The notes: generated by a model from the sequence alone, not told the origin. Shown: positions 50,912 through 51,923, counted from the whole stretch's first letter. The stretch: DNA of 61,609 nucleotides, filler included, from Basidioascus undulatus (GCA_000826855.1; 3 parts of 3 records of this genome joined end to end with filler, not necessarily neighbours in it), one strand, 5' to 3'. Numbers and translations: made by a program.

Positions 50912-51923
50912 CTATTCTGGTACTGCAGGGGTAACAAGCCAGGTTGTGTGTGAACCAGCGGAGCCTTGACATCGGGTGAGACAGATACATATGTTTGTAA
51001 CGACGCCCAGCTTGTAGAAGTTGCCAACAGAGACACCAGCACCAAAGATGCTTGATCAGGTGTAGCACTGTTGCCGAGAAGGGCAGAAAGGAGCTCGGGA
51101 ACAATTCCATCGCGCTCCTGTAGCTACAATCGAGCCGGTCAGCAATGGTGTCAAATATATAGATGCACAGCACATACATCACGGGTAATAATATGTACAG
51201 CAAACGATGCAGCAATGTGAACAATCAAGACAGGAATAAGGCAAGCATGGGATGTGCCGCGTTCTTGACTGCATCCAAGTCCTCCTTGGAAAGTCCCCAA
51301 GTGGACATGATCTGGTCTTCTAATGCCCCCTGCCCAGGAATAGCGTTGAGAAGATCGGTCACTATTCCATCCCGTGCCTTTAGCTGTAAAGAGAACCGTC
51401 AGGGCTAGTCACAAAGCCCCGGTTGAGCAGTGCATACCTTGGCCCGCTTGTTACCTGCAGCGGAGACAGAAAAATGATCGGAAGTACATGTTAGCTTCTA
51501 AGCAGAACATTGTGGTATATCATTCATCAATGCACATTTATTATCGCCCCAATCTTGACTAGGTCACCATATGAAACGCCCAACACAGACTTGACCTAGG
51601 GGGGTAGCCCCACTGCCAAGGAAAGACAAGAGGAGATTCTGGACAATACCGTCACGTTTCTCGACCTAAAAAGGCATGGTATCAGCGTTGTTACTGTGTG
51701 TAATAATGGCGCTGCGAGTGTGCATGAAGCTCACGGCCAAAATGTCATTTGATGCTTCGAGACCACGGGAGGCAATACCAATCAGAGGAGCTATGGAGTT
51801 GGCATGGAGGGTGGAGCGTCCCACATGTGCAATGGAACCATGGTCACCGGTAGAACTGTGGAGGGGCGCGGTGCAAACGGCTGCGGCTGAAAGAGCAATG
51901 GGGACAATGGTGCGGAACAGCAT
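50912..51923 (-). pseudogene. Secreted precursor with a signal peptide and three exon-encoded xxxR-DGIV repeats (KEP-like); frameshifted or decayed
   Basis: Exon 1 MLFRTIVPIALSAAAVCTAP... Repeat exons start at 51665 (VEKRDGIVQNLL), 51383 (LKARDGIVTDLL) and 51123 (LQERDGIVPELL), each right after a YAG acceptor. Small deletions in repeats 1 and 3 break the frame. Confidence 0.7.

What the first reader, a model, noticed from the sequence alone, without database searches (positions are those of the whole stretch)
50912..51923. Exon-modular secreted peptide precursor with R-DGIV repeats, reminiscent of KEPs such as Ece1 (candidalysin) or Rep1
Seen: a signal-peptide exon (MLFRTIVPIALSAAAVCTAP) is followed by three ~45-codon exons. 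Each opens right after an acceptor with four residues ending in Arg, then DGIV. Repeat 1: VEKR-DGIVQNLLLSFLGSGATP/*VKSVLGVSYGDLVKIGAIIN. Repeat 2: LKAR-DGIVTDLLNAIPGQGALEDQIMSTWGLSKEDLDAVKNAA. Repeat 3: LQER-DGIVPELLSALLGNSATPDQASLVL/GVSVGNFYKLGVVTN. The slash marks an inferred frameshift. A possible 17-nt linker exon (~51455-51439) can read NKRAK, a second dibasic site. Established: fungal Kex2-processed repeat proteins release several peptides from one precursor, and C. albicans Ece1 has several KR-DG junctions. Inference: a family built by exon duplication that releases amphipathic helical peptides (toxin, surface-active or signalling). The ORF track misses it because it is split by introns and frameshifts. 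The Ece1 resemblance is architectural, not demonstrated homology.
Basis: partly seen in the sequence, partly recalled or inferred. Interest (0 to 1): 0.75.

Follow-up and report, generated by a model that had tools for sequence, protein, structure and literature searches.

The report
Decayed exon-modular secreted repeat-protein gene
This is the remnant of a fungal gene built from four duplicated exon modules that once encoded a secreted repeat protein, but it now carries frame breaks and stop codons inside a mutation-scarred block of DNA, so it is probably a dying gene rather than a working toxin precursor.

Summary
The repeats are real and lie on the minus strand. There are four modules, not three, with a period of 260-286 nt. 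Each opens right after a YAG acceptor that has a branch-like motif upstream. N-terminal halves are similar far beyond shuffles (z 5.6-13.6). Differences between units fall by codon position as 54/26/92, a clear sign of past protein-coding selection.

Only unit 2 is intact. Units 1 and 3 have frame breaks. Unit 4 has lost the Arg and holds two in-frame TAGs. No GT-AG path reads more than 113 of 153 conserved codons.

The locus sits in a ~9-kb island depleted in CpG and enriched in TpG/CpA. A nearby galactokinase gene is intact, so assembly error is unlikely.

Only 1 of 4 junctions is dibasic (VEKR). Two more fit the published LxxR Kex2 motif. The peptides are acidic to neutral and no more amphipathic than shuffles. 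No homologue was found, but a control shows the databases hold no close relative of this basidiomycete-like genome.

Verdict: a lineage-specific, KEP-like gene with one repeat per exon, most likely recently inactivated. The Ece1/Rep1 likeness is architectural only. Interest is low to moderate.

The parts
52041..52049 (-). TATA-like element (TATAATAAA) about 120 nt upstream of the ATG. A CCAAT lies at 52133-52137, and a CT-rich tract lies between them and the ATG.
   Evidence: Read directly. This is a consensus-level match only.
51735..51923 (-). Exon 1, 63 codons. Signal-peptide-like N-terminus (Arg4, hydrophobic core about residues 5-17, small -3/-1 sites after residues 15, 17 and 18), followed by a ~45-aa pro-region.
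   Evidence: Kyte-Doolittle scan and -3/-1 rule. No SignalP was available.
51666..51734 (-). Intron 1, 69 nt: GTGAGC ... CTGAT ... TAG. Its length is a multiple of 3.
   Evidence: (donor score 4.0).
51534..51665 (-). Unit 1 exon. The N-half (51665-51600) begins VEKR-DGIV. The frame break with in-frame TAG is at 51599-51596. The C-half (51595-51536) is in another frame. The donor GTGCAT starts at 51535.
51438..51454 (-). 17-nt micro-exon-like piece between CAG and GTATGC. Its length is not a multiple of 3. It reads N-K-R-A-K only after a phase-1 exon.
51255..51383 (-). Unit 2 exon, the only intact unit (43 codons, LKAR-DGIV...). There is no usable donor at its end (GCACAT). The frame runs on to a TGA at 51227-51225.
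50993..51123 (-). Unit 3 exon. The N-half (51123-51040) begins LQER-DGIV. A net -1 break lies between 51055 and 51037. The C-half is 51037-50993. The ancestral donor position reads ATATGT.
50895..50922 (-). Second micro-exon-like piece (28 nt) between CTGCAG and GTGCAT. It is homologous in position to the 17-nt piece. This stretch is deleted in unit 2.
   Evidence: (A1 columns about 218-244).
50706..50837 (-). It begins LEQG-DRLV, so the Arg and the DG are lost. In-frame TAGs lie at 50762-50760 and 50741-50739. The first TAG could be the natural stop.
   Evidence: (D1 copy at 50803-50839).
46000..55000 (.). CpG-depleted, TpG/CpA-enriched island that contains the locus.

Best explanation
The locus is the relic of a lineage-specific fungal gene, in a basidiomycete-type, intron-rich genome. 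The gene arose by tandem duplication of a ~280-nt module. Each module has a 132-nt phase-0 exon encoding a 44-residue, probably three-helix unit, followed by intron sequence that holds a micro-exon.

The ancestral product was probably a secreted pre-pro-protein. Its units start [L/V]-x-x-R then D-G-I-V, a KR or LxxR type site for a Kex2-like Golgi protease. Cleavage would have released several acidic ~40-50-residue helical peptides, or shorter conserved cores running from DGIV to ATPDQ.

The present copy can no longer make that product. Units 1 and 3 are frame-broken. Unit 4 has lost its Arg and carries stops. The donors at the ends of units 2 and 3 are gone. The micro-exon lengths are not multiples of 3. 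The gene lies in a ~9-kb block with the mutational scar of cytosine methylation. At most it may still yield a truncated protein (exon 1, the N-half of unit 1, and unit 2).

Shown: the repeats, their exon-intron anatomy, past coding selection, the breaks, and the CpG-decay island. Inferred: secretion, protease processing, silencing by methylation, and loss of function.
For: Four modules with spacings of 286, 260 and 282 nt (alignment A1).

N-half protein similarity gave z 5.6-13.6, with shuffles reaching the observed score in 0-2 of 2000.

Differences between units by codon position are 54/26/92. Invariant columns are 7/14/1 of 22 each. dN is 0.25-0.65 with dS above 1.2 or saturated.

All 4 unit acceptors are YAG with a CT[GC]A[CT] motif 12-17 nt upstream.

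Exon GC is 0.54, against 0.43-0.50 for the introns.

The N-terminus is signal-peptide-like.

P4 is aliphatic in 4 of 4 junctions, P1 is Arg in 3 of 4, and P1' is Asp in 4 of 4. LxxR with P4 Leu and P1 Arg is a published Kex2 pro-domain motif (passages of 10.1101/2020.05.27.120113).

Decay. Across 1,131,854 enumerated GT-AG paths from the ATG, the best reads 113 of 153 conserved codons. With donors scoring at least 2.5, the best of 381 paths reads 69 of 153. Of 119,923 paths from the unit-1 acceptor, none reads the conserved C-halves of units 1 or 3.

The unit-end donors read GTGCAT, GCACAT and ATATGT. The galactokinase introns of the same window use GTGCG[TC] in 4 of 6.

CpG o/e is 0.37-0.81 across 46-55 kb, against a mean of 1.04 (sd 0.12, n=26 bins) elsewhere, with TpG/CpA o/e at 1.11-1.47.

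The galactokinase gene aligns without any frame break over residues 29-525 of a homologue, so assembly indels are rare here.
Against: A permissive splice path does keep one open frame through the N-halves of all four units and ends at the first TAG of unit 4. The gene could therefore still be expressed in a remodelled form.

The promoter-like elements, the ATG context, intron 1 and unit 2 are intact.

Methylation is inferred from dinucleotide bias only.

Only 1 of 4 junctions is dibasic, and cleavage at LKAR or LQER is unproven.

The AlphaFold model of unit 2 (pLDDT 67.8) runs a helix across the junction, residues 2-14. That fits an uncleaved repeat domain as well as a processed one.

There is no transcript, orthologue or peptide evidence of any kind.
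Confidence: 0.5

Rival explanations
1. The gene still works but has been remodelled. Only the well-conserved N-halves (about 22-28 residues, from [L/V]xxR-DGIV to ATPDQ) are the coding cores. The broken C-halves are spliced out as intron or variable spacer. The product would be a secreted precursor with 2-4 cores, released at KR or LxxR sites.
For: An open GT-AG path exists: 51923-51735, then 51665-51591 (or 51665-51596 plus 51454-51438), 51383-51270, 51123-51037 or 51123-50989, and 50837-50760. Exon 51665-51596 (70 nt) plus the micro-exon (17 nt) make 87 nt, which is in frame, and only then does the micro-exon read NKRAK. The 51123-50989 exon is 135 nt and open. Mean DNA identity is 0.58 in the N-half, but 0.40 in the C-half, about the same as the intron body at 0.38. 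That is the pattern expected for a conserved core with a free spacer.
Against: The path needs weak donors. GTCAAG scores 0.5 on my scale and lacks the +5 G seen in the window's other introns. With over a million candidate paths, finding one open path is not surprising, and no null model was run. The C-halves of units 1 and 3 still show coding-type similarity (z 6.2), so they were exons until recently. Unit 4 lacks the Arg. The locus lies in the CpG-decay island.
Confidence: 0.2
2. Whatever its present state, the protein was never a cleaved precursor. The 44-residue units would be structural three-helix repeats of a single secreted or wall-associated protein, and the Arg-Asp at each unit start would be a structural feature.
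For: Only 1 of 4 junctions is dibasic. The AlphaFold model places residues 2-14 in one helix spanning the junction and predicts three helices per unit. The peptides are acidic to neutral and no more amphipathic than shuffles. Proteins with one repeat per exon are common in eukaryotes (general knowledge).
Against: The model has low confidence (pLDDT 67.8, 4-row alignment). Foldseek found no PDB match (0 at E<=10). No Pfam repeat family matched. The P4-aliphatic, P1-Arg, P1'-Asp pattern at exactly the exon starts fits a protease site.
Confidence: 0.2
3. The breaks are sequencing or assembly errors, and the real gene is intact.
For: The breaks in units 1 and 3 are small indels, and one of them abuts a run of six C.
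Against: The galactokinase gene in the same window has no frame break across about 1.5 kb of coding sequence. Substitution-type damage cannot be indel error: two TAGs in unit 4, the lost Arg, donor positions reading GCACAT and ATATGT, and the deleted micro-exon in unit 2.
Confidence: 0.07
4. The locus is not a gene at all, but a non-coding tandem repeat or chance similarity.
For: No annotated protein or homologue was found. Tandem Repeats Finder reports no array here.
Against: Codon-position asymmetry of 54/26/92. Protein-level scores are far above shuffles. Acceptors and branch motifs are conserved. No Rfam family matched in 50-52 kb.
Confidence: 0.03

Closest known systems
Kex2-processed repeat proteins (KEPs) as defined by Le Marquer et al. 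2019 (PMC6339444) and surveyed by Umemura 2020 (PMC7329392)
   Same: A signal-peptide-like start, a pro-region, and three or more similar units in tandem, each preceded by a basic P1 residue. Having no homologues is usual for this class: 2560 of 7878 KEPs were 'stand-alone' (PMC7329392 abstract).
   Different: The published rule needs KR, RR or KK between repeats (PMC6339444 Methods passage). Here only VEKR qualifies. The units are long (44 aa) and each has its own exon. The present copy is frame-broken. No DUF3328 neighbour was detected in the ORFs scanned. The motifs RDGIV, RDGI, GATPDQ and ATPDQ occur in none of the 4 + 3 supplementary files held for the two papers.
Kex2-processed pro-domain (K2PP) effectors with LxxR/KR junctions (SnTox3 preprint, 10.1101/2020.05.27.120113)
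   Same: P4 Leu or another aliphatic residue with P1 Arg. Here the junctions read VEKR, LKAR and LQER. A ~45-residue pro-region lies between the signal peptide and the first site.
   Different: K2PP proteins have one pro-domain and one folded mature domain, not tandem units. Cleavage was not tested here.
Ustilago maydis Rep1 repellent precursor
   Same: A basidiomycete pre-pro-protein cut in the secretory pathway into many peptides (11, according to the abstract of PMC3133707 as shown in the search listing). My recollection is that the peptide size range is similar.
   Different: No sequence similarity was detected by the profile search. Rep1 peptides are described as amphipathic amyloid formers, whereas these units are no more amphipathic than shuffles. 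I did not compare the Rep1 sequence directly.
Candida albicans Ece1 / candidalysin
   Same: The polyprotein idea only: a signal peptide followed by several peptides.
   Different: Candidalysin is a 31-aa cytolytic peptide (abstract of PMC5784256 in the listing). The units here are acidic to neutral, Gly-rich and lack an amphipathic excess. No homology was found. Junctions are mostly monobasic.

Membership tests
KEP (Kex2-processed repeat protein; Le Marquer 2019 pipeline) | N-terminal signal peptide | tested here: inconclusive
   Heuristics only. Arg4, a hydrophobic core at residues 5-17 (Kyte-Doolittle 9-residue means 1.2-2.4), and permissible -3/-1 sites after residues 15, 17 and 18. No SignalP was run.
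KEP (Kex2-processed repeat protein; Le Marquer 2019 pipeline) | At least three repeated motifs | tested here: met
   Four units. N-half pairs gave z 5.6-13.6. A local HMM hit 7 of 2317 six-frame segments at E<0.05, all within 50694-51665.
KEP (Kex2-processed repeat protein; Le Marquer 2019 pipeline) | Repeats separated by KR, RR or KK sites | tested here: not met
   The junctions read VEKR, LKAR, LQER and LEQG, so 1 of 4 is dibasic. A further KR (in NKRAK) exists only in one frame of the 17-nt piece.
KEP (Kex2-processed repeat protein; Le Marquer 2019 pipeline) | One continuous coding sequence for the precursor | tested here: not met
   The best GT-AG path reads 113 of 153 conserved codons. 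No path reads the C-halves of units 1 or 3.
LxxR/KR Kex2 pro-domain junction (K2PP) | [quoted passage not shown] | tested here: met
   VEKR directly follows the 63-codon exon 1, and LKAR and LQER open the next units. The disorder criterion was not tested.
LxxR/KR Kex2 pro-domain junction (K2PP) | Actual cleavage by Kex2 | not testable with these tools
   This needs an in vitro protease assay or peptidomics.
Ece1 / candidalysin | Sequence homology | tested here: not met
   This test is indirect. The profile search of 1.84 billion representatives gave 5 hits, all unrelated long repeat proteins. The word-index searches gave none. Ece1 itself was not fetched.
Ece1 / candidalysin | Amphipathic, membrane-active peptide | tested here: not met
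   The maximum 11-residue hydrophobic moment was reached or exceeded by 6-78% of shuffles. Net charge is -5 to +1.
Rep1 repellents | Sequence homology | tested here: not met
   The same searches apply, again indirectly. Rep1 was not fetched.
Ustiloxin-type (dikaritin) RiPP precursor | DUF3328/UstYa gene nearby and a short Tyr-containing core | tested here: not met
   No DUF3328 hit was found among 88 + 83 + 150 ORFs scanned. Short exons could be missed. The conserved N-half has no Tyr.

The most novel reading that the evidence does not exclude
The locus is a working, exon-modular peptide precursor. Each module contributes one conserved ~20-residue core (DGIV to ATPDQ) that is released at monobasic LxxR sites rather than dibasic ones. 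Splice choice among weak donors and the micro-exons would set how many cores, and which linkers (including a KR-bearing one), each mRNA carries. That would be a splicing-tunable KEP that current KEP pipelines miss, because they require KR/RR/KK sites and rely on annotated proteins.
Probability: 0.12. Interest if true: 0.55.

Novelty: new variant of a known kind. Interest (0 to 1): 0.3.

Why it matters
If the ancestral reading is right, some fungal multi-peptide precursors are built one repeat per exon and use LxxR rather than dibasic junctions. Both features hide them from KEP surveys that start from annotated proteins and KR/RR/KK rules. The copy seen here is mainly of evolutionary interest. 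It is a datable example of a repeat-peptide gene dying inside a CpG-decay (probably methylated) block. It is also a warning that a 'frameshifted but recognisable' repeat gene need not be a hidden toxin gene. As it stands, it does not open a long-standing question.

Tried and rejected
Pfam on exon 1 and three repeat pieces gave nothing relevant. The only hit was LSDAT_prok on exon 1 at E 0.015, below its cut-off.

The search for homologous proteins found nothing at E<=10, either with unit 2 or with the 4-row N-half alignment A4. Both searches covered 'longer' proteins only. Proteins of 24-75 aa were not searched.

The exhaustive profile search (28 positions) of 1.84 billion representatives gave 5 hits at E<=1e-3. 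All were long repeat proteins matched over 8-14-residue stretches, for example an ankyrin-type 'LLAAGATPDQV'. I judged them motif coincidences.

Other searches: PDB by sequence gave 0 hits. The ESM Atlas returned only unnamed clusters, with recognition 2107, below the 2300 mark. Foldseek against the PDB with the low-confidence model gave 0 hits.

MAFFT could not place the C-half fragments correctly, so the database profile used N-halves only.

I rejected the idea that the pro-region of exon 1 is a fifth degenerate unit (z -1.1 to 1.3).

No further unit exists anywhere in the window. Tandem Repeats Finder sees no array here because the copies are too divergent. Rfam found no RNA family in 50-52 kb. 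The bacterial promoter and terminator scan is irrelevant to a eukaryote. GC3 of the repeats (0.58) against housekeeping exons (0.60-0.74) is not decisive.

SignalP and ProP were not available.

Full report
OBSERVATION.
The feature lies on the minus strand. An ATG at 51923 opens a 63-codon exon whose start is signal-peptide-like. All three are present, and each directly follows a YAG acceptor. The repeat finder shows a fourth copy. Family D1 has 4 copies of a 37-nt core spaced 286, 260 and 282 nt apart. A DNA alignment of four ~285-nt modules has 63% mean column identity. Unit 4 (50837-50706) begins LEQG-DRLV.

Protein-level Smith-Waterman scores against 2000 shuffles gave z 5.6-13.6 for the six N-half pairs. 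Shuffles reached the observed score in 0 of 2000 for five pairs and in 2 of 2000 for R2-R4. The C-halves of units 1 and 3 gave z 6.2 (0 of 2000). The C-half of unit 2 is not significantly similar to the others (212 and 98 of 2000). DNA-level scores are weaker, with z from -0.2 to 8.2. A local HMM of the unit, run over 2317 six-frame segments of the whole window, found only the pieces of these four units. The next best segment had E=2.4.

IT WAS A CODING GENE.
Across the 22 gap-free N-half codons, pairwise differences fall 54/26/92 on codon positions 1/2/3. Invariant columns are 7/14/1 of 22 each. dN is 0.25-0.65, while dS exceeds 1.2 or is saturated. The duplications are therefore old, and the peptide sequence was under purifying selection for most of the time since.

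All four unit acceptors carry a CT[GC]A[CT] branch-like motif 12-17 nt upstream. The exon pieces have GC 0.54, against 0.43-0.50 for the intervening sequence. Intron 1 (69 nt, GTGAGC...CTGAT...TAG) joins exon 1 in frame to unit 1. A TATA-like element, a CCAAT and a CT-rich leader lie upstream of the ATG (direct reading).

Each module also contains a micro-exon-like piece with its own acceptor and donor. It is 17 nt in module 1 (51454-51438) and 28 nt in module 3 (50922-50895). It is deleted in module 2.

IT IS BROKEN.
Only unit 2 is intact. Unit 1 has a frame break with an in-frame TAG at 51598-51596. Unit 3 has a net -1 break between 51055 and 51037. Unit 4 has lost the Arg and the DG and carries TAGs at 50762-50760 and 50741-50739. 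The donor positions after units 2 and 3 read GCACAT and ATATGT. The micro-exon lengths are not multiples of three.

I enumerated every GT-AG path from the ATG, allowing introns of 45-230 nt, a YAG acceptor and a branch-like motif. Of 1,131,854 paths, the best reads 113 of 153 conserved codons. With donors scoring at least 2.5 on a simple scale, the best of 381 paths reads 69 of 153. None of the 119,923 paths that start at the unit-1 acceptor reads the conserved C-halves of units 1 or 3.

The 113-codon path reads only the N-halves and relies on weak donors such as GTCAAG. It is notable that 70 nt of unit 1 plus the 17-nt piece are in frame, and only then does that piece read NKRAK. With so many candidate paths and no null model, I treat this as a rival reading, not as evidence.

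CONTEXT.
A galactokinase gene at 22.8-24.8 kb aligns to a fungal homologue over residues 29-525 in seven blocks, separated by 65-118 nt, with no abutting frame change. The assembly is therefore not indel-prone, and short introns are normal here. Its donors read GTGCG[TC] in 4 of 6 introns. The GTGCAT donors at the locus differ from that by one CpG-type transition.

The best database relatives of this galactokinase exon are Agaricomycetes and Wallemia, at only 50-52% identity, and no self hit was returned. The genome is therefore basidiomycete-like but has no close relative in the protein collections.

The locus lies in a sharply bounded island at about 46.0-55.0 kb. In 1-kb windows there, CpG o/e is 0.37-0.81 and TpG/CpA o/e is 1.11-1.47. 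The other 26 two-kb bins have a mean CpG o/e of 1.04 (sd 0.12, minimum 0.77). This is the expected scar of 5-methylcytosine deamination. I infer a long-silenced block, but methylation itself was not measured.

HOMOLOGY.
None was found by any route:
- Pfam.
- Two word-index searches of 5.8 billion proteins, for longer proteins only.
- An exhaustive profile search of 1.84 billion representatives, which gave 5 hits, all unrelated long repeat proteins.
- PDB by sequence.
- ESM Atlas.
- Foldseek with the model.

Because the control shows no close relative in the databases, this absence is weak evidence. Umemura 2020 reports that 2560 of 7878 KEPs have no homologues (abstract passage). No fungal genome DNA could be searched.

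WHAT THE UNITS LOOK LIKE.
The four junctions read VEKR, LKAR, LQER and LEQG, followed by D-G-I-V (D-R-L-V in unit 4). P4 is aliphatic in 4 of 4, P1 is Arg in 3 of 4, and the site is dibasic in 1 of 4.

The KEP pipeline of Le Marquer 2019 cuts at KR, RR or KK and needs at least three repeats (Methods passages). The locus therefore fails that definition. The SnTox3 preprint describes LxxR (P4 Leu, P1 Arg, variable P3 and P2) as a Kex2 pro-domain junction in fungal effectors (passages), and three of the junctions fit that.

AlphaFold2 on unit 2, with the 4-row alignment, predicts three helices (residues 2-14, 18-29, 33-42) at pLDDT 67.8. Net charges of the pieces are -5 to +1. The maximum 11-residue hydrophobic moment is matched or beaten by 6-78% of shuffles. 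The 'amphipathic lytic peptide' idea therefore has no support.

INTERPRETATION.
The best reading (0.5) is a lineage-specific gene with one repeat per exon, encoding a secreted pre-pro-protein with Kex2-type junctions, now inactivated inside a decaying and probably methylated block. The rivals are:
- A remodelled, still-functional gene that uses only the N-half cores (0.2).
- An uncleaved three-helix repeat protein as the ancestral function (0.2).
- Assembly error (0.07).
- No gene at all (0.03).

The architecture resembles KEPs, Rep1 and Ece1 only in outline. Rep1 and Ece1 facts come from abstracts in search listings.

I found no mention of exon-per-repeat KEP genes. The words 'intron' and 'exon' occur 0 times in PMC6339444 and PMC7329392 and once, irrelevantly, in PMC9769878. 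That covers three papers only and is not a claim about the literature at large.

VERDICT.
It does not hold for KEP membership, toxin-like properties or present function.

Noticed in passing
window 46000-55000: A sharply bounded island about 9 kb long. CpG o/e is 0.37-0.81 and TpG/CpA o/e is 1.11-1.47, against a mean of 1.04 elsewhere, and GC is lower (0.45-0.55). It looks like a methylation-deamination scar. No Pfam domain was found in any ORF of at least 45 aa inside it.
   Followed up: partly
window 46299-46340 and 48571-48612: A 42-nt inverted repeat pair (79% complementary) brackets the 2.3 kb with the lowest CpG o/e (0.37-0.39). These may be the ends of a decayed non-autonomous transposon.
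   Followed up: no
window 49585-49656 (-), 49887-49968 (-), 45689-45778 (-): tRNA-Gln(CTG) was found by both Rfam (65.3 bits) and ARAGORN. A second tRNA-like hit came from Rfam only (46.9 bits). A tRNA-Ser-like call with an odd ACT anticodon came from ARAGORN only. The first two lie about 0.5-1 kb downstream of unit 4, inside the CpG-poor island.
   Followed up: no
window 22778-24796 (+): An intact seven-exon galactokinase gene with CT-rich introns of 65-118 nt, and GTGCG[TC] donors in 4 of 6 introns. I used it as a control for assembly quality and taxon. The best relatives share only 50-52% identity (Agaricomycetes, Wallemia).
   Followed up: yes
window 43800-45300 (+): A cytochrome P450 gene split by introns, with an ExxR motif, PERW and a heme loop (F-S-D-G-H-R-A-C-S-A). 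It lies just outside the CpG-poor island and about 5.4 kb from unit 4. I found no evidence that it is linked to the repeat gene.
   Followed up: partly
window 55428-57596 (-): Pieces of a PIF1-like / UvrD-like helicase in several frames, with normal CpG content. This may be an intron-split PIF1 gene or a Helitron-type helicase. No Helitron Rep domain was seen among ORFs of at least 90 aa.
   Followed up: no
window 40607-41116 (-) and 31447-31938 (+): An L-type (legume-like) lectin domain exon (E 1.5e-17, below the Pfam gathering score) and an exon of RCC1 repeats.
   Followed up: no
window 1-4000: Very GC-rich stretch (0.65-0.71) with long open frames on both strands, including 589 aa at 1665-3431 (+), and no Pfam match.
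   Followed up: no
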